Below are positions 14,557 to 43,949 of a stretch of 64,000 bases of DNA, one piece after another. The notes beneath the pieces were generated by a model that made no database searches, was not told the DNA's origin, and was given only the letters and a program-made list of their open reading frames with translations. The first letter of the stretch is position 1. Every line of letters begins with the position of its first letter. The translations under genes were made by a program, and so were the position numbers. The stretch lies in assembly GCA_963575745.1 (NCBI GenBank), contig CAUYUJ010000092.1:62001-126000 (forward strand). The letters run 5' to 3'. The DNA comes from Prorocentrum cordatum (Eukaryota).

Positions 14557-17500
14557 CTTGCACCGTGGGGGCTCCACGCCTCCATGCGTGAAAGGATCCC
14601 GCTGGTCCGCCGGAGTCTCCCATTCGCTTTCGGGGTCCCACGGCGCCCGAGGGTGACCGTGCGGATTGGCTAGCACCAGTCTCTCCCTGTGCCGTTCGAT
14701 GGGACAGGGGGCGCCCCAGAAGTGACACTGCAAATCCTGCGATCATCCCAAGTCGGGCAAGCCTTTTTCTCAATTTCGTGGAGAATAAGAAGTGTTTCTG
14801 CTGCGGCCTGGCGAAGTCGGTTTGTTTCGGTGGACACATCACGCCCGCTGTGCCGTGCAAGACGCTGGCCTGGGTCTTGCAGCCGGCGTGGGGCAAGGGC
14901 CCTCTCTCCAGCAGCGACGGCCAGCTGGCCAAGTGCCAGGCGCAGATCAAGCTTCTGGCGGGTGAACTCAAGAAGGCACGGCAGCAGCATGCCCTTCCTG
15001 ACAAGGCAACTGCATGCTGGGATGCCGATGGCGAGCGCGAGGCCCCGTATGATCGAGACCGCTTGGCTGCACCATCGCGTCACTGGACGGAGTCTTGGCG
15101 AAGGTCAAGGCTGACCTCCGCACCGAGCGCCAGGAGATCGAGCAGCGCCTTCTGGACGCGCACCATCCTGCACATGATCGACGAAGCCGAGAAGCAGTTG
15201 CCCAGGACCAAGAAGCAGCAGGATGGTTGCCGCAAGCGCGCGGTGGACGCTGAGCAGGCGTTTTCCGCGTCCGGCGCCCGCGCCTCGGAGCGGGAGCAGG
15301 CGCTGGCGCGGCTCCAGTCCCAGCAAGCGGCCTTGGCCGCTCAGGGCGCGGCGTTCGCACAGCCGCTGCAGGTCGCGGGGGTTCCGTCGGCCCCCATCTT
15401 TCAGCTCGACTCCGGCAAGTTTCGACGGCTTTGGGAGCAGGGCTTCGACGAATTCGGCGTCCACGTGCCCGACCTCTCGGGCTTCGCGGTCCAGCTGTGC
15501 GAGAATGTGCCGCAGTGCTCGCGCCGGGCCTTGGCGCGGCTGGAGGCGCTTGTGGGTCAGGAGCTTGCGGGGGCGGCGGCCGCGCCTGCGGCGCCTTCGG
15601 CGCCGGCTGCCGAGGCAATCGGCGCGGCCCCTGCCGCGGCGGACCCGGGGCCCGACTTGGCGCAGATGCGCGCTGAGATCGCCTCAGGAGGAGTCGACCC
15701 TCCGCAGGATGACGACGAAGTTCGAGCGCCCCGCAGCCAGTTGCGGCTCGCCTGTGGCAGGCGGAGTGGAGGTCGCGCCCCGCTGGGGCCCTCGCCCTGC
15801 TAGGGGATTTGCGCTCGTCGTCGCGGCCCTGATGACCTTCAATCTCATCGCGATGAGCGACTGGCAGCGGTTGGACACGTCAGCTGTTGGCGTTGCCGAC
15901 ACCGAGCCTCTGGACATGGGGCCGCGCCCTCCTGGGGCCCCTGCGCCTTCTCAGCGCGACGCTGACCGCGAGGTGCTGAACATGGACGAGGACTTCGGAT
16001 CGCGGTCTGCGCGCTGGATTTGGAACGTGAATCGGGAGCGCCAGGAACCATTGACTCTTGGCAAGACTGGCACGAGGAATGGCTCACGATTGTGCTGAAT
16101 TTGGGCGACCAGCGAGAGCCTGGTGAAGCTTTCACGCGTCGCCGCGCGCCTGCGGGCGGCACCCGAAATGACGCGGTCGCTGAGGTATGCGATGCTGGCT
16201 GGCGGCGTGGAGCTCGACGCCGACATCGGTTCATCAGATTCTTGCGTCTGCTCACCCAGGATGCGTGGAACGAGCCGGTCAGTCATCACTGGACCGAGCT
16301 TGACAACCTGGTGGCGATGTTCCGCGCGCTGGTCGAGGCAGTGCAGGAGCCCTCTCCTCGCATTCGTGGTTCCTCTGTATCGATGTGGCCCTCTACGTCG
16401 CCGGCAGCTATTCCGTCGACTTCGACTCCACCGACGTCTTCGACATCTGCGACTAGTTAGATTTCTCTCGGGAGTACGGCGTCTTCGGCGACGGGTGCCA
16501 TTCATGCTGTCTCTCTTGGGAAGATAACGTCGTCGTCGACTGGCCGCGGTGTGTCTCGGGCGCTGCACGGCGGCAGCACTGCGTCGTCGCCAGGCCCCGC
16601 CTCTTCTTGGTCAGTGCGCGTCTGGGATTTGATGTTCCCTGGTGGGAACGTGTCTCCTCTGGGTCATGGGAGCCCTGGGCCTCCCTCGCCCGTGCCCGAG
16701 GGTCTCGGCGCGCTGCCGCTGCTCGACGCGGTTCGCAGGGGCTTTCGGTCAGAAGCATGAGGGATCGCGCCCCGCGCCGCTGGGAACGGAGTTGCGGCGA
16801 GCAGGGCGCCCATCTCCGTCGCTGGAGGACTCGTCGCGGCGCCCGTGGATCTCGAGTTGGATCTACTTCACCCGGCGCCTCAGGGCCGCTGCGCGGCGCC
16901 GCTGCACCTTGCCGCCATCAGCGGGGGCGCTTGGAGTGGAGCGCGCACGGTGCTGGAGTGGAACTCAGCAGCTGGGCGTCGCCCCGACGTTGCTTTCTTT
17001 CAGGAGACGAGGTTCCCCGACTCCGAGTCAGTTGGAGGCGTTCGTCAGCGGTGCCTGGGCCAGGGCTGCTGCCTCGCCCTGGGCCCTCGTCGCACTGGCC
17101 CTGAGCGCCTAGCTGTCAGCGGAGGCGTCGGATTGCACTGGCGCGCACAATGGCGTCTCTAGTTGCGCGTCGGTCCCTTCTGAGCGGGGTCGCCGTGTCG
17201 TGGCCAGGAAGAATCCCCTTGGCGAAGGATCAGTGCTGCTGGTTGCCTCTCTCTACGCGATCACCTCCACTGGTTTGACGGGCGACAATTTGGCTTGGAT
17301 CTCGGAGCTTGCTACCATCATGGGGCAGTTCCCAGTGCCTTTTATCATTGGAGCTGATTGGGACTTGGACACCCGCGCCCTTGCAGCCGGCGTCTGGCGC
17401 CAGAAGGTAGAGGGCATCATCGCCAATCTTAGTGCCCCTACGTGCGGGGAGAACGAATGCGACTACTTCGTCGCGTCTTGCTTGCTGGCTGACCACGCTG

Positions 17501-36200: not shown

Positions 36201-36301
36201 CAGAGTCATAAATGAGTCATACATGGCAAGATAGTCTCAGACGAAACGCTCAGCCCGCCCTACAAACTGGCTTCGGGGTGCGACAGGGAGGAAATACCTA
36301 T

Positions 36302-36503
36302 AAGGAGAAGAAATGAAGGAGGATGAGGAGGAGGAGAAGAAGGAGGAGGAGGGGGAGGCAGAGGAAGGAGAAGAAGAAGACGAGGAGGAGGAGGAGGTGG
36401 AGGAGGAGGAGGAGGGGGAGGAGGAGGGAGGAGGAGGAAGAGGAGGAGGAGGAGGAGGGGGGAGGAGGAGGAGGAGGGGAGGGAGGAGGGGGGGAGGAGG
36501 AGG
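36302..36503 (+). repeat. (GGA)n-rich tract = (TCC)n 3' flank or tail of the LINE
   Basis: Abuts the element's 3' UTR directly. No poly(A). Confidence 0.9.
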
Positions 36504-36744
36504 CGCGCGGACCGCACGCCACCAGCAAGAAGCAAGCCTCGAGCTGGTGGTCCAGTTCAGGCAAGGCCCAGCTCACGCAAGGGCGTGGGCCGAGCGAAAG
36601 GGGGCCGCCCCGCCTGCCTGGCCTCGTCGCACACCAGCCTCCTCAGCGCCGAGAGCACCAGGAAGATGCACACGTGTGCGGCGGGGGAGGGGGGAGGCGA
36701 CGGGCGACAGACGACGGGGGCAGCCCAAGAAAACTAAAACGAGT

Positions 36745-39700
36745 TTAGTCAGAGCCCGAACTCGCTCCATCAGGAGCAGGTTCGGGCCCACGGGCCGCTT
36801 CCAGCAGCCTCAAAGAAATGGAAACTCGGCGGAGCTCCGCGCGGTCATCGTCGCGCTCGGCGGCGTCAAGAGCAATCTTCACGCCCGTCTTGGGGTAACA
36901 CCCACGCTCCAGCCGACGGATGGACATTCTCTGATTAGCAGCCGTGCTCGGGACTTTGGATCTTCCTTGGCATTGCTGCGTGAGGTTTCGCAGCGAGCCG
37001 AGAGAGCCATGAGCCCCGCACAGCTTGCAACAGTACACATGTAGGTGACGAAAAACGTCGTGCCCAAGGTCCCGAAAGGCAGAAAACTCATCCGACGGCT
37101 CGGGCTCAGCCACGGGAGTTGGGGGACCTTGGACCTCATCAGTGCACACACGCTGAACTTCGTCAGCAGCAGCCAGAGCAACCCTCACCGCTTCCAGCTG
37201 CACGGGCCTAAACGCAGCCCCAAACTCACGAAACCACTGGTCGCACACGTGTCGCTGGATCGGTGACGGCATACAGTCACGAGTGTCTCTACTCGTGAGC
37301 AGGCTCTTAAGTGACTCCGACGTGCGAGCAACACGGCCACAGCTCCTGCACTTATAGGTGCTGGTGGCCTCACAGCGAAACAACACATGGCTAGTGACCG
37401 TGACCTTCGGAGGGGCAGGGGCTCTCAAGAGGCGGAGGGAACGATCAGGGTCAACTTGCGTCCATGTGCCAGACTCGAGCAGCCGTTGGGCAGCCCATGC
37501 AATGAATCGCACCGTGGATTTATGATATTTTAAATCCCCTGACACAGCCGCGCAAAAACCCTCAGAAAGCGTGTGAGAGCCGGCCCCTAGTTTGGCGAAA
37601 AAGTCAGCCCACAGATTCCCAGCCCAATTTTTGACACACAGACCACGCTCCAACACGTCATCGAAACTCAGATGGGCTGGGACCCATGAGAACTGGGGGT
37701 GATTTGACTTAAGATCAAATATGGACCTCCAGATCGAGGCATGCTTGGACATGCCTTGGGAGAGATGCTGGCTCCAAGAATTGCCTTCTCGCACAACAGC
37801 CTGGAGGTCCGATACAATACTCTGATGCTGCGGGTGAAAAGCCAGCCCCTGCCGCACAGCCCAGCGTTCTGCACGACCTATGGTCTGACGCTCACCTGGG
37901 AGCGCTCCATATACGGCCCTCAGGGGAAGCAAACAATCAAATAACTGCACAACGCTCCAACCAGCTCTGGAGACCTCTGGGACCCCAGAGTGATAGCAAC
38001 TACCATCAGTGAAAGACTGAGGGCCCCAGGACCCAGAGACGTCCCCAAACTCAAAAACAGGTGGGTTGGCTAGCGGAGCGAGGATGTTGGTAGGCAAGGG
38101 AGGAATGCCATAAGTTAAATAATTAGAGTGCACATCGGGCTCCCCAGTTATAGAGGCCCGAGACTGGATCAACACGCGCCTATGCCTGGCCAGGGCCTCA
38201 GGAACCTCGTCACCCAAAGCGTCAACCCCGTCGTCGGTGATGAACTTAGAGCAGGCATACCACACGTGTCCGTGCGTGCCTTGAGGAGCGGAGCAGGCAA
38301 GGCACTCAGGTAGCCCATCATATTGCAGAGCAGACAGTGCAGCAGGTAGCGGAACCACATTCCCCCAGACGGCAGCAAGGGCCCCAAGAGCACGCGGGTC
38401 TTTTACGGCACGTATACCATGACGAAGTGCACGAAACCAAGGCTCCCCTTCTGGAGGGTCAGTGTTATAGAGGTGCTGCTGCAACCGACGTATCTGCCAC
38501 CGCTGCACCCCTTCGATAATCGCAATTCGCACATCACTGGGACACACCACCAGCAGCGAAATATCTGTACCAAGATCGCTGCGAAAAGTGTGGGCATTGA
38601 CCATCGTCCAGCCTATGCGAAGCAGGCTGAGCCACACCGCCGACAGCGGACCACGAGCCTGCTGCCAAGTAGGGTTGTCGGACATGATATCTCTCAAACA
38701 GGTCCACGCACGTTGAAGCCTCGATATCTGAACCCTTCCGTCCCAGACGAACGTGGCGAACTTGACACACACGCAAATAGTGGAGTCGTAGATCGGGTCG
38801 TATAGCGGATCGGCCTGCGTCAGCAGATACGACGTGATGCCACCGTGCTGCTTGGCACCTGCGATCGTAGCCGCAAGCTGCCTCAAATACTTCAGCGCCG
38901 TGTCTGAAATGCCCGACACGGAACCACCGTGCCCAGCCGCTGGGAAAGCTCCAGTCCTCCAAAGTCGGGTTGCACGCTTGCCAGTTGCATGTTTCAGTGC
39001 AATGAATTTGTCACGGCGACGTTTAAGAGCATGTAGCCTTTTCTTCTCCTGAGTGCGAACAACCCGACCAGCAGCTAATTCATGCCCGAGATTTCTCATC
39101 CATTTACGAACAGGTAGATGCAGCCGAATAGCCATCTTCGAGAAAACCTTCCGAGCAACCTTGTTCCCTGCTATGAGCCCCGACTTTTTGACCTGGGAGT
39201 ACTTGGCATCTTCGGTGAACACTTTCACGGCACGCTCCAGGAAACGCACATCACGAGGATCCGAGGTGACGAGCTGAATCGAGATGTCGTCGACGAGGGC
39301 TCTCGGTGTTATACAGGGCGAAATGTCATTGAGTCTACGCACAGCACGCAGCGTGAGAAGGAAAAGCATGCCTGTCGCATGATTGCACCCAGCAAGGATG
39401 CCTTGATGCGAACAGAACTGCAGCGACAAGCTGCCGAAAGCTCGAAGACGCCGTGGCTGCCTGTACAGATCCACCAGCATCCAAGCTAGCCGCATTGGAA
39501 AGTGTAACGCTTCAGCCTCTTTCAACAGCTGCTCCGAGTGAACCATTTCGAAGCATTTGATCATGTCTAAGAGGACAGATATTGAAATATCACCGACTAG
39601 CGCTGCCATTTCGGCAGCAATGTTGTGGGCAAACGCACTGTCTGAGGAACTGTGCCCACGACGAGTACCCCAAACAGCGTAGCAGTCATTGCGCTCTTGC

Positions 39701-42015
39701 CAGTCGAAGGTGATGGGCTTACGAACTTTGCCCCAGACACGGCACAGCAGCGAAACGAGAGCGATCAGACGAGTCCCACCATCAGGTTTGGCAAGACGGC
39801 ACATCTCATTACAGACACGCTCTCTAGGCCAGGCTAAGTGCAGCTCGCACAGGTTAAAGAGTTCAGCAATCGCCGAAAAGGCCGGCCTAGGCAAATGGAT
39901 TAAAGCTCTCGGATGAATACCCATCATGCCTCCAGCAGTGCGAGTGGGGTAAGTGTGAACAGCATCCTCCACCTGAGCGGCCGTGATGGGCGGCAGCATG
40001 GGCCAGCTGGTGGACCCTCGGGGAGACTCAAGAGCGGAGCAGCCGTGGGTCAACCAAACCTCCTTCCAGGGTTCAAGTTCAGCATCGGCCTGCTGGTGGG
40101 GTGCCTCTCGCGCCTGGTTGCTTAAAACCTCTTGGATGGCCTTCACTTTTGAGAACCTGTGAGCCATCGAAGCACCAGCAGAAAAGGCGTCCCTAGCCCA
40201 TTGCCTCCAAGCCTGGGACGCCGCATTCTCCGCGCGAGTGACAGCTGCCTTCGCACGAGTGTAAATAGTAGTGAGCATGCTGGCCACATCAGGACGTGCG
40301 AGGACGGCGAAGCCGCCATTGAAGAAATCTCGCGCATCCGAGTCGAGGCAACCCGAGACTTTTTTGCAGCGGGCGATGTTGGCCATAAAACGATCGAACT
40401 CATCAAATGCAGTGAGAAGCTTGCGATATTGCAGGGGCGCATGCGAACACAGAGCATCGTTTTCTTGCATTAGCCTAATTTGCTCACTAAGATGTTCTCT
40501 GGCCTTGCCTAAGTGTTTGGCCCAACCAAGAGCGACAGCCCAGGCACGTGCCTGCGGATCCTTATAAGTCCTCCTTCTGGGGGGAGTCCAGACAAGCTTT
40601 TTGAAGTGGACCTCCAGAGGCCCGCTGCGGCCAACATAGGCCTCGGCGGCTAAGCCAACACGGTCCCACCTGGCAGCCAACTCTCTTTCCACCCCTTCGA
40701 GGACGAGGTCCCAAAAATCTGCGACCTTGGCTACAGAATCAACTTGCGGGGCGGCGGTCGACAAAACCGCGTGCCACGGGTAGATAGGAGGTCTAGCACA
40801 GCCTATGGGAGGGGTAGACGGGAACGCTTTCGGGACCTTGGCCACCCGAGCCCAAACCGGGGCCTCCCGAGCCCTCAAAGTAAGCTGGACGGGGAGGTGA
40901 GGGTAGGTGGTAGCAGCCTCCAACACACACGTGCGGGGGTTAAGCTTTGGCGCAAGCCAACTGCTACAAATAAAATAATCGATGTGCGTGCCAGGTGAAA
41001 CCTGCCTGCAGGTGGGCGCCTCAGAAACGAAAGCCAGTCCGCCAGCAGCCGCGATCCAGTCGGACTGGTCCAGGGCAGCGAGCGGCATGTTGAAATCGGC
41101 GCCGATGACCCACGGGATCTGCATGCCGTTGAGCACTGAGAGGTACTCGATAATCTCCCACACCAACTCGGCGTTGCACGGTCCATATCCTTCGCCGTCC
41201 TTGAGATAAGCCGACAGGAAGACGACACCGCCAGGCAGAAAAGACATGACGTGTGCAGCCACAAGCCTGCCAGGGACAAGGACGTGACTAGCGCAGCCAG
41301 GGGGCGCCTTGATAGGAATATGTGACCTGACCAAAACTGCAACGCCGCCTGTGGCGCCAGGCCCTCCATCCTGATTGGGCACGGCGGGGCCCCAGAGCCC
41401 TCTCCAGCCAGTATCTTCAACTTGCGACTGTCGCTCGCCAAGCTTGGTATCAGGAACATGGTGCTCTTGCGCAAGCACCACATGAGCAGTGCTGTCCACA
41501 AGGTAGTCGCACAGTGGACCCAGCGAGCTGGAGTTGAGCGTCGCGATATACGAGTCGCTTTTGCCCTTCGCCTGGCCAGCAACCTTGACATCAGGTCGAC
41601 GAACCCCTGGGCAGTCGGTACCCTCTGCCACGCGTTGCCCATCGGGCGAGCAGGGTGAGCAGTGCGTGCTGCCAGGGCCTAAAAGATTCATGCCATCGGA
41701 ACAACCAGCAGTAGAGCCAGCCACCCTCGTCGAGCAAGAGGCCGATATCGTCAAAGCAATAGGCGCACATGTGGCGCTCTCTGCCTGCCACCTGGTGACA
41801 GGTGAGTGTAGCGACCGAGACGATGACGTAGCACCCGCAGTCGCAGTGGCCGCCCTTGCAGAAGACGCAGAAGGGGCAACCTGGTCGCATGTGACTGGCA
41901 GATATGGCAGACTGTCAGATGCTTCATCAAATTCAAAAGGATCAACATCAGGATCGTCCATGAGAGAACGTCTGGGAGCTGAGGTCAGCTCATCTTGGGC
42001 AGTAGGCGTCGTCAT
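36745..42015 (-). CDS. LINE ORF2 polyprotein, ~1756 aa: APE endonuclease, reverse transcriptase, Cys/His knuckle, RNase H, two C-terminal Cys/His fingers
   Basis: APE: IATLN, LAQEH, GGVAVLV, SAY, IGADFN, PTC..IDYF, YPHLPV. RT: KPDGGTRLIAL, LLDMIKCFEMV, GILAG, LVDD. Knuckle: CLAC..GTHGHVWYAC. RNase H: FTDGS, RAE, IVSD, WVPAH, GNLWADFFAK. Fingers: H..YKCRSCG..C and GH..YCCKLCG..C. Start taken as the first ATG after the ORF1 stop (uncertain). Confidence 0.95.
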   Translation of the reverse strand: MTTPTAQDELTSAPRRSLMDDPDVDPFEFDEASDSLPYLPVTCDQVAPSASSARAATATAGATSSSRSLHSPVTRWQAESATCAPIALTISASCSTRVAGSTAGCSDGMNLLGPGSTHCSPCSPDGQRVAEGTDCPGVRRPDVKVAGQAKGKSDSYIATLNSSSLGPLCDYLVDSTAHVVLAQEHHVPDTKLGERQSQVEDTGWRGLWGPAVPNQDGGPGATGGVAVLVRSHIPIKAPPGCASHVLVPGRLVAAHVMSFLPGGVVFLSAYLKDGEGYGPCNAELVWEIIEYLSVLNGMQIPWVIGADFNMPLAALDQSDWIAAAGGLAFVSEAPTCRQVSPGTHIDYFICSSWLAPKLNPRTCVLEAATTYPHLPVQLTLRAREAPVWARVAKVPKAFPSTPPIGCARPPIYPWHAVLSTAAPQVDSVAKVADFWDLVLEGVERELAARWDRVGLAAEAYVGRSGPLEVHFKKLVWTPPRRRTYKDPQARAWAVALGWAKHLGKAREHLSEQIRLMQENDALCSHAPLQYRKLLTAFDEFDRFMANIARCKKVSGCLDSDARDFFNGGFAVLARPDVASMLTTIYTRAKAAVTRAENAASQAWRQWARDAFSAGASMAHRFSKVKAIQEVLSNQAREAPHQQADAELEPWKEVWLTHGCSALESPRGSTSWPMLPPITAAQVEDAVHTYPTRTAGGMMGIHPRALIHLPRPAFSAIAELFNLCELHLAWPRERVCNEMCRLAKPDGGTRLIALVSLLCRVWGKVRKPITFDWQERNDCYAVWGTRRGHSSSDSAFAHNIAAEMAALVGDISISVLLDMIKCFEMVHSEQLLKEAEALHFPMRLAWMLVDLYRQPRRLRAFGSLSLQFCSHQGILAGCNHATGMLFLLTLRAVRRLNDISPCITPRALVDDISIQLVTSDPRDVRFLERAVKVFTEDAKYSQVKKSGLIAGNKVARKVFSKMAIRLHLPVRKWMRNLGHELAAGRVVRTQEKKRLHALKRRRDKFIALKHATGKRATRLWRTGAFPAAGHGGSVSGISDTALKYLRQLAATIAGAKQHGGITSYLLTQADPLYDPIYDSTICVCVKFATFVWDGRVQISRLQRAWTCLRDIMSDNPTWQQARGPLSAVWLSLLRIGWTMVNAHTFRSDLGTDISLLVVCPSDVRIAIIEGVQRWQIRRLQQHLYNTDPPEGEPWFRALRHGIRAVKDPRALGALAAVWGNVVPLPAALSALQYDGLPECLACSAPQGTHGHVWYACSKFITDDGVDALGDEVPEALARHRRVLIQSRASITGEPDVHSNYLTYGIPPLPTNILAPLANPPVFEFGDVSGSWGPQSFTDGSCYHSGVPEVSRAGWSVVQLFDCLLPLRAVYGALPGERQTIGRAERWAVRQGLAFHPQHQSIVSDLQAVVREGNSWSQHLSQGMSKHASIWRSIFDLKSNHPQFSWVPAHLSFDDVLERGLCVKNWAGNLWADFFAKLGAGSHTLSEGFCAAVSGDLKYHKSTVRFIAWAAQRLLESGTWTQVDPDRSLRLLRAPAPPKVTVTSHVLFRCEATSTYKCRSCGRVARTSESLKSLLTSRDTRDCMPSPIQRHVCDQWFREFGAAFRPVQLEAVRVALAAADEVQRVCTDEVQGPPTPVAEPEPSDEFSAFRDLGHDVFRHLHVYCCKLCGAHGSLGSLRNLTQQCQGRSKVPSTAANQRMSIRRLERGCYPKTGVKIALDAAERDDDRAELRRVSISLRLLEAARGPEPAPDGASSGSD

Positions 42016-42070
42016 TGCACTAGGGCAATGGCATAGACAGAACAAAACCACAGCGAACCACCCAATCACT

Positions 42071-43216
42071 TTACGCAGCGGTCTTGCCACTGGTCTTGAA
42101 CTTCTTCGTAAGCGATTGAACTTGTGCCAAGTGACGCTTGAGCTTATCACGAAGCTCTCGCACCTTGGGCTCATCAAGCTCGTCGTCTTCACCGCCCACG
42201 TCGACATCAATGCCACATTCTTTGAGATGTTCACGGCATGTGCGACCACCCAGGCCATCAACGTGAGCATTAGCACGAGCCTGATCCTCAGCATCGTCGA
42301 CGTCCATGGGTGCTCGAGCCTCAGGAGGAGCGGTGTGAGCCTCAGGCTGTGGAGCAGACGGTTCGGGTGCAGCAGTGGCCTCTGGGGCTTCCTTGAGCTT
42401 CTGAACCAGCGCGCGCATGGCGATGAGGTCGGTGCTGAACCGCTCCGACCCGCCCAACGCACGGACAACGGCGTCGAACTGCTCGACCGTGGCCTCCATG
42501 CCTGGCAGGAAGGTGGACAGGGAAGGTGCCTTGTCATCAAACTGCACGGCAGGGACGACCACATGGCGCAACCGCTCCTCAAGTTCCACGATGTGCTTGT
42601 TAGCGTCCTGCTCGTCCTGCTCGACCTGCGCAAGGGCCTGCTTGGCCTTCTCCAGGGTAGAGCGAGCAGCCTCCTTTTTGACAGCCAGATTGGACAGCTT
42701 CGTGCGAGCAGTCTTGAGCTGGCTGGTGAGCCCCTGCAAGTTGGCCTCCAGCGGTTTGTCGGCCTGCAACTCAGCCTGCAGGCGCTGCTTCTCGGCCTCG
42801 AACACCGCACGCTGCTCGGCGTCCTCAGGCCCCGACAGGAGCTTGAGCAGACTTCCAAGCTTGGTGAGGCGCTCACGTTTGACAGCAGCGTCAGTGCCTT
42901 TAGCCCAGGGAGGGATCGCAGGCTCCTTGGGCTCCACAACCGTACCATTTTGACTGACAACCATCTTCTGCATGCGCTGCTGCAATTCTTCCAACTGCTT
43001 CGTGAGAAGCTTTTCACGCTTCGTGGCCATGTCGTGAGACCGCTGGACGGGGACCTTGGGCGGAGGGACACCTTGGAAAGCTGAGCCTTTCGGGATGCCA
43101 CACTTGCCACACCACTTCTGATCGCCACGATTGATCCAGCTCGTGCCAGTGGGCTCATGCTTGCACCATTTACAATACCATGGGCCTGCCTCCGCACTGC
43201 GCGACCTGGGAGCCAT
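42071..43216 (-). CDS. LINE ORF1, 381 aa: N-terminal RanBP2-like C4 zinc finger plus long coiled coil
   Basis: MAPRS..WYCKWC-x10-N-x6-CGKCG and an E/K/Q/L/A heptad-rich middle region. The same finger pattern occurs in the decayed copy at ~14720. Confidence 0.9.
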   Translation of the reverse strand: MAPRSRSAEAGPWYCKWCKHEPTGTSWINRGDQKWCGKCGIPKGSAFQGVPPPKVPVQRSHDMATKREKLLTKQLEELQQRMQKMVVSQNGTVVEPKEPAIPPWAKGTDAAVKRERLTKLGSLLKLLSGPEDAEQRAVFEAEKQRLQAELQADKPLEANLQGLTSQLKTARTKLSNLAVKKEAARSTLEKAKQALAQVEQDEQDANKHIVELEERLRHVVVPAVQFDDKAPSLSTFLPGMEATVEQFDAVVRALGGSERFSTDLIAMRALVQKLKEAPEATAAPEPSAPQPEAHTAPPEARAPMDVDDAEDQARANAHVDGLGGRTCREHLKECGIDVDVGGEDDELDEPKVRELRDKLKRHLAQVQSLTKKFKTSGKTAA

Positions 43217-43418
43217 GCCGACGGGCGGATGAGCAGACCGAGCGCGCACACGAGACACCACGCGAGGCCTGACAGGCGGGCCGTGGCGGGGCTGGGCCGT
43301 GCGGGGCGGACCGCACAGCGCTCTGCCTGGGGCGAACCAGGCGAAAACGTTGAAGACTGCCGCGGTAACAGCGGTATCCAGTTTGGCACAAGGGCGCGGA
43401 GCCCTTCAGTGCAGAAGT

Positions 43419-43470
43419 CTTGAGCCAAAATGGCTTGAGCCAAAATGGCTTGAGCCAAAATGGCTACGGA
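43419..43470 (-). other. Dinoflagellate spliced leader (22 nt, 43470-43449) followed by two perfect 15-nt relic SLs
   Basis: Minus strand reads TCCGTAGCCATTTTGGCTCAAG CCATTTTGGCTCAAG CCATTTTGGCTCAAG, an exact match to DCCGTAGCCATTTTGGCTCAAG. Confidence 0.98.
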
Positions 43471-43800
43471 GAGGGGGAGGAGGAGGAGGAGGAGGAGGAA
43501 GAGGAGAGGAGGAGGAGGAGGGGGAGGAGGAGGGGGAGGAGGAGGAGGAGTTAAAGAAGAAGAGAAGAAGATGAAGAGGAGGAGGAGGAGGAGGAGGACG
43601 AGGTGGACGAGGAGGAGGAGGAGGAGGAGGAGGAGAGAAGAGGAAGAGGAGGAGGAGGTGGTGGAGGAGGAGGAGGACGGGGAGGAGGAGGAGGAGAAGG
43701 AGGAGGAGAAGGAGAAGGAGAGGAAGAGGAAGAGGAGGAGGAGGGGGAGGAGGAGGAGGAGGAGGAGGAGGAGGAGGAGGAGGAGGAGGAGGGGGAGGGA
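43471..43800 (+). repeat. (GGA)n-rich tract = ~330-nt polypyrimidine (TCC)n immediately upstream of the SL on the minus strand
   Basis: Seen directly. Confidence 0.95.
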
Positions 43801-43949
43801 AGGAAGGGTGACGGACTGCAAGGGCGCAAGAGGAGAGGGAACGGAGTGTCGGCGCTTCACAGCACGCCAGCCTCCATAGGAGCGGCCGGGGAGCCGCCCC
43901 TCCTCCGTACGAGCTCGGCTACCCCTCATCACTAGCAGGGGAGGGCGTA

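What the first reader, a model, noticed from the sequence alone, without database searches (positions are those of the whole stretch)
36504..43470. Autonomous LINE whose 5' end is a full spliced leader plus two relic leaders: a trans-splicing-dependent retrotransposon with a built-in generation counter
Seen: the first 52 nt of an intact ORF1/ORF2 element are an exact 22-nt dinoflagellate SL and two exact 15-nt CCATTTTGGCTCAAG units, joined directly to flanking microsatellite. Established: dinoflagellate mRNAs receive this SL by trans-splicing. In recycled retrogenes, the AG inside an integrated SL (CCGTAG) acts as the next acceptor and leaves exactly this 15-nt relic each cycle. Inference: this element's RNA was trans-spliced and fully reverse-transcribed in at least three successive rounds, recently enough that no leader has mutated. 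LINEs normally preserve their 5' end with an internal promoter or a ribozyme. Here host trans-splicing could cut the element out of read-through transcripts, cap it, and install a new acceptor for the next generation. It would also be an obvious engine for SL-bearing retrogenes. I cannot verify from here whether this has been described for this family.
Basis: partly seen in the sequence, partly recalled or inferred. Interest (0 to 1): 0.92.

Follow-up and report, generated by a model that had tools for sequence, protein, structure and literature searches.

The report
Dinoflagellate LINE capped by spliced leaders
An intact jumping gene (LINE) in a dinoflagellate genome starts with the host's spliced-leader tag plus two leftover copies of it, and unrelated metagenome contigs show the same for other LINEs, so these elements appear to get their RNA 5' ends from the host's trans-splicing machinery.

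Summary
On the minus strand, 43470-43419 is an exact 22-nt dinoflagellate spliced leader (SL) followed by two exact 15-nt relics. It is joined directly to a 6,967-bp non-LTR retrotransposon with an intact ORF1 and an intact ORF2 (endonuclease, reverse transcriptase, RNase H). The element has no poly(A) and sits inside a (CCT)n microsatellite.

The strongest new evidence comes from a metagenome scan for "SL + relic". Of the 119 loci returned, 8 begin LINEs, and they fall into three protein lineages. One of them (L019) is a distant relative of this element. An SL-headed 5' end is therefore recurrent and not an assembly accident.

Relic number varies between near-identical copies, but tandem slippage cannot be excluded, so the "generation counter" gives at best a lower bound. 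Dependence on trans-splicing is inferred, not shown, because I obtained no RNA data and no other copies from the source genome.

Two further points are worth follow-up:
- The ORF2 frame carries no stop codon across all of ORF1, in this element and in L019.
- Microsatellites abut genomic SLs far more often than control positions.

None of the 15 papers I consulted describes SL-headed LINEs. I rate this a new variant of a known kind.

The parts
43471..43930 (-). 5' flank: (CCT)n-type microsatellite on the element's sense strand. The 300 nt next to the SL are 97% pyrimidine, and there is no AG dinucleotide in the last 339 nt.
43449..43470 (-). Complete 22-nt dinoflagellate spliced leader (TCCGTAG...CTCAAG) encoded in DNA. 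Its internal AG (element positions 6-7) is the presumed next trans-splice acceptor.
   Evidence: consensus quoted in PMC7245778
43419..43448 (-). Two exact 15-nt SL relics (CCATTTTGGCTCAAG x2).
43217..43418 (-). 5' UTR (202 nt). No Rfam family, including ribozymes, matches at E<=1.
42071..43216 (-). ORF1, 381 aa. It has an N-terminal Cys4 zinc-finger-like motif (WYCKWC...CGKC) followed by a coiled-coil-like region. No Pfam family matches. The zinc-finger part is 35% identical to L019.
36745..42015 (-). ORF2, 1756 aa counted from the first ATG after the ORF1 stop. The same frame stays open upstream through all of ORF1 and up to the SL.
40960..41514 (-). AP-type endonuclease domain (Pfam Exo_endo_phos, 26.2 bits, cut-off 24.5).
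39283..39792 (-). Reverse transcriptase domain (RVT_1, 25.4 bits, below the 29.6 cut-off). The LVDD active-site motif starts at 39297 and is conserved in the homologue alignment.
37585..38013 (-). RNase H domain (PF00075, 28.0 bits, cut-off 25.8). It begins at the FTDGSC motif.
36504..36744 (-). 3' UTR (241 nt) without poly(A). It is predicted to be strongly structured: the fold was run on 36504-36760 (257 nt, including the last 16 nt of ORF2) and gave -133.6 kcal/mol against -110.1 for shuffles, z = -4.86. Two hairpins lie at the very 3' end.
36300..36503 (-). 3' flank: the same (CCT)n-type microsatellite, 97.5-100% pyrimidine over 200 nt. Its first 16-18 nt resemble the last 16 nt of the 5' flank, which could be a target-site duplication but cannot be judged inside a repeat.

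Best explanation
This is a full-length, probably active non-LTR retrotransposon (ORF1; ORF2 = AP endonuclease, reverse transcriptase, RNase H) of a high-GC dinoflagellate. Its RNA 5' end is made by the host's spliced-leader trans-splicing. A transcript that enters the element from upstream is cut at the AG inside the DNA-encoded SL (CCGTAG|CC) and receives a new capped SL. The old SL is thereby reduced to a 15-nt relic. Full-length target-primed reverse transcription then writes SL plus relics back into DNA, so each new copy again carries an acceptor. The present copy records three SL additions. The element ends in a structured 3' UTR without poly(A) and lies within a (CCT)n microsatellite. 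What is shown: the anatomy, the intactness of the ORFs, and the recurrence of SL-plus-relic heads on LINEs of three lineages in independent assemblies. What is inferred: that trans-splicing is the regular (perhaps obligate) way these elements define their 5' end; that transcription comes from upstream or from the TTT(T/G) motif within the SL; and that each relic stands for one retrotransposition cycle.
For: 1. The SL plus two relics are exact and adjacent.
2. The SL is followed by relics and not by an SL-RNA intron, and the units have exactly the 15-nt length that re-splicing at the SL's AG produces (model as quoted in PMC3229502, and PMC7245778).
3. Both ORFs are intact and the APE, RT and RNase H domains are present. 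The alignment with 9 homologues lists E213, N310 and D375 among its invariant columns and D938 among its nearly invariant ones.
4. Recurrence: of the 119 metagenome loci with SL plus one or more exact relics, 8 head LINEs.
   - L019: tblastn 1e-48 to this ORF2, 3e-5 to ORF1, profile HMM 1e-72.
   - L027: APE 27.7 bits and RVT_1 47.6 bits.
   - L059: APE 42 bits.
   - L016, L055, L054, L065 and L014: joined to L027 or L055 by phmmer at 2.7e-52 to 6.8e-13.
   - Six of these 8 have 62-156 nt of non-SL DNA upstream, so they are genomic copies or precursors and not mature mRNAs.
5. Of the 20 distinct loci with at least 2 kb downstream of the array, 6 are LINE-related and 3 more possibly so.
6. Relic number differs between near-identical copies: L023/L036 are 99.8% identical and differ by one 16-nt unit; L053/L097 are 99.3% identical, have different upstream flanks, and carry 2 and 1 relics.
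7. Here the SL's AG is the first AG after 339 nt, and the 300 nt next to the SL are 97% pyrimidine.
8. No Rfam ribozyme or other RNA family matches at the 5' end.
Against: I obtained no RNA evidence. I could not examine any other copy from the source genome, because no genome is held, so I cannot say whether sister copies carry SLs or how many. The UTR-SL junction in this window rests on the assembly alone, since the Logan contigs did not bridge it. Polypyrimidine upstream sequence is not general: L019 has (GACA)n, which contains AG dinucleotides, and L027 and L059 have (TA)n. Identical tandem units can expand or contract by slippage, so three units need not mean three cycles. An ungapped test for decayed relics deeper in LINE 5' UTRs was negative (3 of 2,046 positions against 12 of 10,789 in controls, p = 0.72). 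Long histories of relic accretion are therefore not visible, which implies resets or loss. The metagenome scan was conditioned on SL plus relic, so it cannot show what fraction of LINE copies lack an SL. RVT_1 for this element alone is below Pfam's cut-off.
Confidence: 0.72

Rival explanations
1. Incidental tagging. The LINE has its own way of starting transcription. Because nearly every nuclear transcript in dinoflagellates can be trans-spliced, some LINE RNAs pick up an SL by chance and are then copied. On this view the SL is a passive scar with no role in the life cycle.
For: SL relics are common on ordinary genes. In the same scan, tubulin, Kelch, Mg-chelatase, radical-SAM, L23 and PLD genes carry them. 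Song et al. report relics upstream of more than 20% of genes (passages of PMC5585692). No experiment here shows dependence on trans-splicing.
Against: The head is recurrent in 8 loci of three LINE lineages, all with at least two SL additions. It is also present in a relative that shares only 43% identity over the endonuclease region matched by tblastn (ORF2 residues 171-404). An occasional accident would not be expected to be seen so often or to be repeated serially on the same lineage. The scan's conditioning on SL plus relic weakens this argument.
Confidence: 0.2
2. The integrated SL works mainly as a portable promoter. The TTT(T/G) motif inside each SL or relic serves as the dinoflagellate core promoter element, so SL-headed copies are transcribed autonomously. 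The array is then kept for transcription and not as a splice acceptor.
For: Song et al. propose exactly this for retrogenes and report that TTTT/TTTG is the best-retained part of relics (passages of PMC5585692). Three tandem TTTTGG motifs lie at the element's head.
Against: A transcript that starts at or after the array could not produce the observed relic series, which requires RNA that includes the SL's AG. The idea is compatible with the best explanation if start sites lie upstream of the AG.
Confidence: 0.15
3. The array grew by replication slippage or unequal exchange of a 15-nt tandem repeat after a single SL-tagged insertion. On this view relic number says nothing about the number of cycles.
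For: The units are 100% identical and tandem. L023 and L036 are 99.8% identical over 584 nt yet differ by one internal 16-nt unit, and L036 has no upstream flank to show that it is a different locus.
Against: L053 and L097 have different upstream flanks and 2 versus 1 relics, as expected if a new insertion adds a unit. Relic series that decay towards the 3' side are reported in ESTs (passages of PMC3229502).
Confidence: 0.3
4. Artefact or template switch. Either the junction is an assembly chimera between an SL-relic locus and a LINE, or the reverse transcriptase jumped from the LINE RNA's 5' end onto an SL-bearing RNA, as in U6/L1 chimeras.
For: SL-relic words are extremely abundant in the DNA run that best holds the element. 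Depth over 43407-43447 is 7,701 against 22-184 over the rest of the stretch, and dozens of different sequences adjoin the array, so mis-joins are conceivable. U6/L1 chimeras are known (search listing of 10.1101/2025.02.02.635956).
Against: The same kind of junction appears in 8 independent contigs. The junctions are in exact register (…CTCAAG followed by UTR), with no SL-RNA intron and no foreign UTR sequence.
Confidence: 0.05

Closest known systems
Dinoflagellate mRNA recycling (retrogenes tagged by DinoSL relics; Slamovits & Keeling 2008, known to me only as cited in passages of PMC3229502, PMC7245778 and PMC5585692)
   Same: The signature is identical: a full SL followed by 15-nt relics cut at the SL's internal AG, an intronless body, and serial additions.
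   Different: Here the recycled RNA encodes its own endonuclease and reverse transcriptase, so the cycle is self-propagating. There is no poly(A) at the 3' end. The papers I consulted treat retrotransposons as the presumed helper and not as the tagged cargo. [quoted passage not shown] Song et al. note only that the GO term 'RNA-dependent DNA replication' is enriched among relic-bearing genes.
L1Tc/ingi LINEs of trypanosomatids (Pr77 internal promoter plus HDV-like ribozyme)
   Same: These are LINEs living in a host where mRNAs are SL trans-spliced, and they face the same problem of regenerating a defined 5' end.
   Different: L1Tc solves the problem with an internal promoter and a self-cleaving ribozyme, and its transcripts are described as unspliced (titles and abstract starts in the search listing: PMC1874656, PMC3383444, PMC3185411). 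Here no ribozyme family matches and the 5' end is the host SL itself.
R2-type elements that are co-transcribed with a host gene and cut out by a 5' ribozyme (recalled from general knowledge; not checked in a call)
   Same: The logic is the same: rely on read-through transcription and then process the 5' end out of the precursor.
   Different: In this element the processing would be done by the host spliceosome through trans-splicing, which also supplies the cap, and it leaves a heritable and growing tag.
SL-gene-targeting LINEs (SLACS/CZAR/CRE, NeSL-1; recalled from general knowledge; not checked in a call)
   Same: They show an association between LINEs and spliced-leader sequence.
   Different: Those elements insert into SL RNA genes, with the SL as a DNA target. 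Here the SL is added to the element's RNA, and the DNA target is a microsatellite.
Microsatellite-targeting LINEs (for example R1-clade Waldo and Mino; recalled; PMC4640811 seen only in the search listing)
   Same: The element lies inside a microsatellite, with the same repeat on both sides, and it lacks poly(A).
   Different: Target specificity is not shown, because only one copy was seen with both flanks. Related SL-headed LINE loci have different repeats upstream.
DinoSL on transcripts of a Symbiodinium +ssRNA virus (Levin et al. 2017, known to me only as cited in passages of PMC9651163)
   Same: A genetic parasite carrying the host SL at its 5' end.
   Different: That case is an RNA virus and was interpreted as mimicry. 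It is not a chromosomal element with serial relics.

Membership tests
Non-LTR retrotransposon (APE-type LINE) | AP-like endonuclease domain N-terminal to the RT | tested here: met
   Exo_endo_phos scores 26.2 bits against a 24.5 cut-off. Seven of 10 aligned homologues match it. A profile of the alignment hits exodeoxyribonuclease III 6lpm at E = 1.1e-6.
Non-LTR retrotransposon (APE-type LINE) | Reverse transcriptase domain with the catalytic xxDD motif | tested here: met
   RVT_1 has E = 1.3e-5 but scores 25.4 bits, below the 29.6 cut-off. Four of 10 homologues match it, best 1.1e-7. The LVDD motif is present, and D938 is nearly invariant in the alignment. The domain is met by motif plus family context but is weak by Pfam score alone.
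Non-LTR retrotransposon (APE-type LINE) | No long terminal repeats | tested here: met
   A blastn of the element against the window returns only the self match.
Non-LTR retrotransposon (APE-type LINE) | Target-site duplication and a 3' tail (poly(A) or simple repeat) | tested here: inconclusive
   There is no poly(A). Both flanks are (CCT)n, and similar 16-18-nt stretches lie at the two junctions, but this cannot be told apart from the repeat itself.
Non-LTR retrotransposon (APE-type LINE) | Multiple dispersed copies | tested here: inconclusive
   There is only one copy in the window, and no genome is held. Logan contigs of run X1 lay on the 5' 1.2 kb in several variants: 87 at 99% or more, 53 at 95-99% and 61 at 90-95%. 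This suggests a multi-copy family, but many of those contigs are SL-array words.
A named LINE clade (L1, I, R1, Tad, Ingi, CR1 and so on) | Placement of the RT in a clade phylogeny | not tested
   No reference LINE set was on hand. phmmer against the PDB finds nothing. I state only the domain order APE-RT-RNase H.
DinoSL-relic retrocopy (mRNA recycling) | Full or partial DinoSL in DNA directly 5' of the transcribed body, with relics truncated at the internal AG | tested here: met
   A 22/22 SL plus two 15/15 relics.
DinoSL-relic retrocopy (mRNA recycling) | Intronless body | tested here: met
   Both ORFs are uninterrupted.
DinoSL-relic retrocopy (mRNA recycling) | Poly(A) remnant at the 3' end of the copy | tested here: not met
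   The element ends ...GGTCCGCGCG and runs directly into (CCT)n. This is consistent with an RT that starts on its own structured 3' UTR rather than on a poly(A) tail (inference; fold z = -4.86).
SL RNA donor gene | SL exon followed by a GT intron with an Sm site, often in SL/5S arrays | tested here: not met
   The SL is followed by relics and the LINE UTR. No Rfam family matches in 36300-43700.

The most novel reading that the evidence does not exclude
Several dinoflagellate LINE lineages have handed the definition of their 5' end to the host. They are transcribed as part of longer precursors, released and capped by SL trans-splicing at the AG of their own DNA-encoded SL, and reverse-transcribed in full. 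The acceptor (and perhaps a TTTT promoter motif) is thus renewed at every generation. The same machinery would produce the SL-tagged retrogenes that fill dinoflagellate genomes. This is hinted at by a shared junction signature: a microsatellite abuts the SL in 15 of 94 loci, LINE and non-LINE alike, against 3 of 431 controls. A further twist would be that ORF2 is expressed from the frame that stays open across all of ORF1, for example from a second trans-splice acceptor just upstream of the ATG at 43158.
Probability: 0.35. Interest if true: 0.9.

Novelty: new variant of a known kind. Interest (0 to 1): 0.77.

Why it matters
Which enzyme drives the massive "mRNA recycling" of dinoflagellates is an open question. 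[quoted passage not shown] This locus and the eight related metagenome loci supply concrete, intact candidates. These are LINEs that carry the recycling signature themselves, and several of them share with ordinary SL-tagged retrogene loci a microsatellite directly upstream of the SL.

For the biology of mobile elements, this would be a third solution to the LINE 5'-end problem, beside internal promoters and self-cleaving ribozymes. Here the host's trans-splicing would cut, cap and re-arm the element. The relic array also gives a readable, though imperfect, record of recent activity that could be used to find active copies in very large genomes.

Tried and rejected
- **Whole-genome census of copies:** not possible, because no genome is held for this window.
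- **RNA evidence:** no RNA holder is listed among the 12 runs returned.
- **Laying Logan contigs** of X1, X2, X3 and X6 on 42300-43500: the contigs are short. The SL array attracts thousands-fold depth from other loci, and no listed piece bridges the UTR-SL junction. This neither supports nor contradicts the junction.
- **JGI metagenome scan with ORF1:** 600 pattern matches, none confirmed.
- **Viral-contig scans** with the SL+relic pattern and with the ORF2 alignment: nothing found.
- **Earlier findings of this scan:** nothing found in three look-ups.
- **Clade assignment through solved structures:** the single sequence gives no hit. The profile hits only generic exonuclease III and weak nuclease folds.
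- **Profile comparison of ORF2 homologues with the long ORFs of L023, L025, L012 and L016:** no similarity (probabilities 0.1-0.2). L016 was later tied to L027 by phmmer. L023/L036 remain only "possible", with RVT_1 at 24.4 bits, below the cut-off.
- **Idea that LINE 5' UTRs are built from decayed relics:** the first 15 nt of this UTR match the relic at 8 of 15 positions in register (background for 8 or more is 1.9%). The pooled ungapped test over 11 sequences was negative, however: 3 of 2,046 positions against 12 of 10,789, p = 0.72. I rejected the idea as unsupported.
- **Same microsatellite downstream of the other loci:** found in none of the 24 loci with an upstream repeat, but most of those contigs end too early to show a 3' end.
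- **Gene neighbourhood:** 27 flanking ORFs of at least 200 aa gave one weak membrane-protein hit and nothing else. Host transcription direction is therefore unknown.
- **Leaky scanning to the ORF2-frame ATG at 43158:** this ATG is the fourth ATG of the RNA, which I judge, from general knowledge of scanning, to make leaky scanning unlikely.
Full report
**1.
Read on the minus strand, 43470-43449 is TCCGTAGCCATTTTGGCTCAAG. It is followed by CCATTTTGGCTCAAG at 43448-43434 and again at 43433-43419, and then by unrelated sequence. The 22-mer fits the published leader consensus DCCGTAGCCATTTTGGCTCAAG, quoted in passages of PMC7245778. The 15-mer occurs three times in the 64-kb window, all here. Dinucleotide-preserving shuffles expect 0.02, and 0 of 100 shuffles reached 3. 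The base before the leader ends a (CCT)n-type tract.

**2. Anatomy of the element.**
- ORF1 runs from the ATG at 43216 to a TAA at 42073-42071 (381 aa). It has a Cys4 zinc-finger-like motif and then a coiled-coil-like region, and it matches no Pfam family.
- ORF2, counted from the first ATG after that stop (42015), runs to a TAA at 36747-36745 (1756 aa).
- Pfam finds an AP-type endonuclease (26.2 bits, cut-off 24.5), a reverse transcriptase (25.4 bits, below the 29.6 cut-off) and RNase H (28.0 bits, cut-off 25.8). The RT motif LVDD is present.
- The alignment with nine homologues lists E213, N310 and D375 among its invariant columns and D938 among its nearly invariant ones.
- The nearest proteins in the large collection are 31-38% identical, and most are named Prorocentrum cordatum by their source.
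- The window's G+C is 61.5%, close to the 59.7% reported for that genome (passage of PMC10666404). That hints at the source but does not identify it.
- There are no terminal repeats and no Rfam match anywhere in 36300-43700.
- The 241-nt 3' UTR has no poly(A). Folded as 36504-36760, it is far more stable than shuffles (z = -4.86).

**3. The flanks.**
Both sides are the same (CCT)n-type microsatellite in the same orientation. Upstream of the leader, the nearest 300 nt are 97% pyrimidine, and there is no AG for 339 nt. The AG inside the leader is therefore the first AG after a very long pyrimidine tract. Downstream, 200 nt are 97.5% pyrimidine. The last 16 nt of the 5' flank resemble the first 16-18 nt of the 3' flank. 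Inside a repeat this cannot be told apart from chance.

**4. Independent loci show the same head.**
No genome is held for the window, and a metagenome scan with ORF1 found nothing. I therefore scanned the metagenome collection for the exact 36-mer "leader without its first base plus one relic". Eighty of them have up to 8 kb of flank and the rest have 300 nt.
- **L019.** It has (GACA)n upstream, then leader plus relic, then a homologue of ORF1's zinc finger (35% identity, E = 3e-5), then the endonuclease of ORF2 (43% identity, E = 1e-48). A profile HMM of the ORF2 family gives 1e-72.
- **Pfam scan.** I scanned 118 ORFs from 66 loci at E <= 1e-5. APE and/or RT lie downstream of the array in L019, L027 (both domains, above cut-offs), L059 and L044 = L046 (the same sequence twice; the RT is 5 kb away, so the link is uncertain). 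Eight loci carry ordinary host-gene domains.
- **phmmer links.** L016, L055, L054, L065 and L014 tie to L027 or L055 at 2.7e-52 to 6.8e-13. Weak cross-hits of segments that overlap the array itself were ignored, because they are translations of the shared leader.
- **Count.** Eight of the 119 loci, in three lineages that my searches did not connect, are LINEs that begin with leader plus relic. L023 and L036 are possible further cases (RVT_1 at 24.4 bits, below cut-off).
- **Among long loci.** Of the 20 distinct loci with at least 2 kb after the array, six are LINE-related and three more possibly so.
- **Genomic or not.** Six of the eight have 62-156 nt of other DNA before the leader, so they are not mature mRNAs. 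L054 and L055 have only 7 and 11 nt upstream and could be transcripts.
- **Limit.** The scan was conditioned on the leader, so it shows recurrence. It does not show the share of LINE copies that have a leader.

**5. Is the array a counter?**
Under the recycling model, leader plus two relics means three leader additions. The model is given in passages of PMC3229502 and PMC7245778.
- Relic number does vary between close copies. L053 and L097 are 99.3% identical downstream, have different upstream flanks, and carry 2 and 1 relics. L023 and L036 are 99.8% identical and differ by one 16-nt unit, but L036 has no upstream flank, so it may be the same locus.
- Identical tandem units can also slip.
- Trans-splice sites are flexible among nearby AGs (passages of PMC2488372), so splicing at a later AG would reset the array.
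- A pooled test for decayed relics deeper in LINE 5' UTRs was negative.

I therefore read the array as a lower bound on recent cycles, and not as a clock.

**6. Mechanism, and what is shown versus inferred.**
- Shown: the DNA anatomy, the intact ORFs, and the recurrence of the head on different LINEs.
- Follows from the established recycling model: RNAs of these elements were trans-spliced, re-spliced at the AG of a DNA-encoded leader, and reverse-transcribed to their very 5' end.
- Inferred: that this is the regular way the family makes its 5' end; that transcription enters from upstream; and that the reverse transcriptase starts on the structured 3' UTR rather than on poly(A).

The pyrimidine tract fits a strong acceptor in this copy. 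It is not general, because L019 has (GACA)n and L027 and L059 have (TA)n upstream.

**7. Rival explanations.**
- Incidental tagging of a self-sufficient element.
- The leader acting as a portable TTT(T/G) promoter, as Song et al. propose for retrogenes (passages of PMC5585692).
- Array growth by slippage.
- An assembly chimera or a template switch.

The last is unlikely, given eight independent contigs with in-register junctions. The other three cannot be excluded without RNA data and a copy census, and the promoter and slippage readings are compatible with parts of the main explanation.

**8. Comparison with the literature.**
I ran six searches and used term searches that returned passages in 15 papers. 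I opened no supplement.
- None of these passages describes a LINE whose 5' end is a spliced leader.
- Song et al. note that the GO term "RNA-dependent DNA replication" is enriched among relic-bearing genes, and they take retrotransposons as the likely driver. Their supplementary lists may hold such elements.
- De Mendoza et al. describe Symbiodinium LINEs without mentioning leaders.
- In trypanosomatids, L1Tc uses an internal promoter and a ribozyme and yields unspliced transcripts (listing only).

I therefore rate this a new variant of known kinds (LINE plus leader recycling), with the caveat about unseen supplements and papers outside the library.

**9. Side observations.**
- **Open ORF2 frame across ORF1.** The ORF2 frame has no stop across all 381 ORF1 codons. 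Synonymous shuffles expect 6.5 stops, and 1 of 20,000 shuffles reached zero. L019 shows the same, 0 against 4.1 expected, P = 0.0036. Inside ORF2 the +1 frame has 48 stops against 51.6 expected, so the depletion is specific to the ORF1 region. The first ATG in that frame (43158) is the fourth ATG of the RNA, and it follows ...GCAAG. Four P. cordatum gene models (P0004, P0005, P0007, P0008) have an ORF1-like N-terminus on proteins that match ORF2; in P0004 and P0008 the endonuclease region follows it in the same model.
- **Microsatellites next to genomic leaders.** A microsatellite fills the 24 nt before the leader in 15 of 94 distinct loci, against 3 of 431 control windows (Fisher p = 1e-9). 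This holds for LINE and non-LINE loci alike.

**10. Limits.**
One copy was seen with both ends. There are no RNA data. The source genome was not available. The LINE clade was not assigned. The junction in this window is supported only by the assembly and by analogy with other contigs.

Noticed in passing
window 42074-43216 (minus strand); L019 376-1578: The ORF2 reading frame (+1 relative to ORF1) has no stop codon across the whole of ORF1. Synonymous shuffles expect 6.5 stops in the window element (P = 5e-5) and 4.1 in L019 (P = 0.0036). Inside ORF2 the +1 frame has the expected number of stops (48 against 51.6). This suggests an overlapping coding frame, a frameshift fusion, or a second trans-splice acceptor just before the ATG at 43158.
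   Followed up: partly
L001-L119, the 24 nt upstream of each genomic SL: Microsatellites directly abut the SL in 15 of 94 distinct loci, against 3 of 431 control windows (Fisher p = 1e-9). The motifs include TA, CAT, CAA, GACA, ACAT, CT, GT and TGTAA. Both LINE loci (L019, L027, L059, L014) and non-LINE loci show it. With a looser rule (at least 12 nt of repeat ending within 8 nt of the SL), 24 loci show it.
   Followed up: partly
L023 versus L036; L053 versus L097: Near-identical copies differ in relic number. L023 and L036 are 99.8% identical over 584 nt and differ by one 16-nt unit (GCCATTTTGGCTCAAG). L053 and L097 are 99.3% identical, have different upstream flanks, and carry 2 and 1 relics.
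   Followed up: partly
L012, L062, L015: A family of SL-headed loci (phmmer 9e-74 and 1e-14) has two long overlapping ORFs right after the array (in L012, 714 aa and 971 aa). They match no Pfam family and show no similarity to the ORF2 profile. They could be another mobile element or an unknown gene family.
   Followed up: partly
L019 about 500-560: ORF1 of L019 changes frame within a (GGA)n / poly-Gly run. As assembled, the zinc finger is therefore in frame with the endonuclease, and the coiled-coil part is in another frame. This may be a real indel, an assembly error in a simple repeat, or a slippage site.
   Followed up: no
window 17164-17490 (+): A short endonuclease-like stretch is 32% identical to ORF2 residues 270-384 (tblastn E = 1.6e-6). 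It is probably a decayed fragment of another LINE.
   Followed up: no
window 9.1-10.4 kb, 12.5-13.1 kb, 26.3-27.1 kb, 35.4-36.2 kb, 46.1-46.7 kb, 49.0-50.5 kb: The window is dense in tandem repeats (periods of 8, 12, 9-15, 83 and 90 nt) and in (CCT)n/(GGA)n tracts on both strands. The 83-nt array ends just beyond the element's 3' flank. No flanking ORF of at least 200 aa has a clear Pfam family.
   Followed up: no
window 43303-43346 (5' UTR): Logan contigs of two runs (X1 and X2) share this 44-nt block and then diverge on both sides into sequence that looks like an indel-bearing homologue of the UTR. This suggests diverged subfamilies with a conserved 5' UTR core.
   Followed up: no
P0004, P0005, P0007, P0008 (named Prorocentrum cordatum by their source): These predicted proteins begin with an ORF1-like zinc finger and coiled coil, and all four match ORF2. 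In P0004 and P0008 the endonuclease region is seen following it in the same gene model. Either single-ORF relatives exist, or gene models bridged the frame change with a predicted intron.
   Followed up: no
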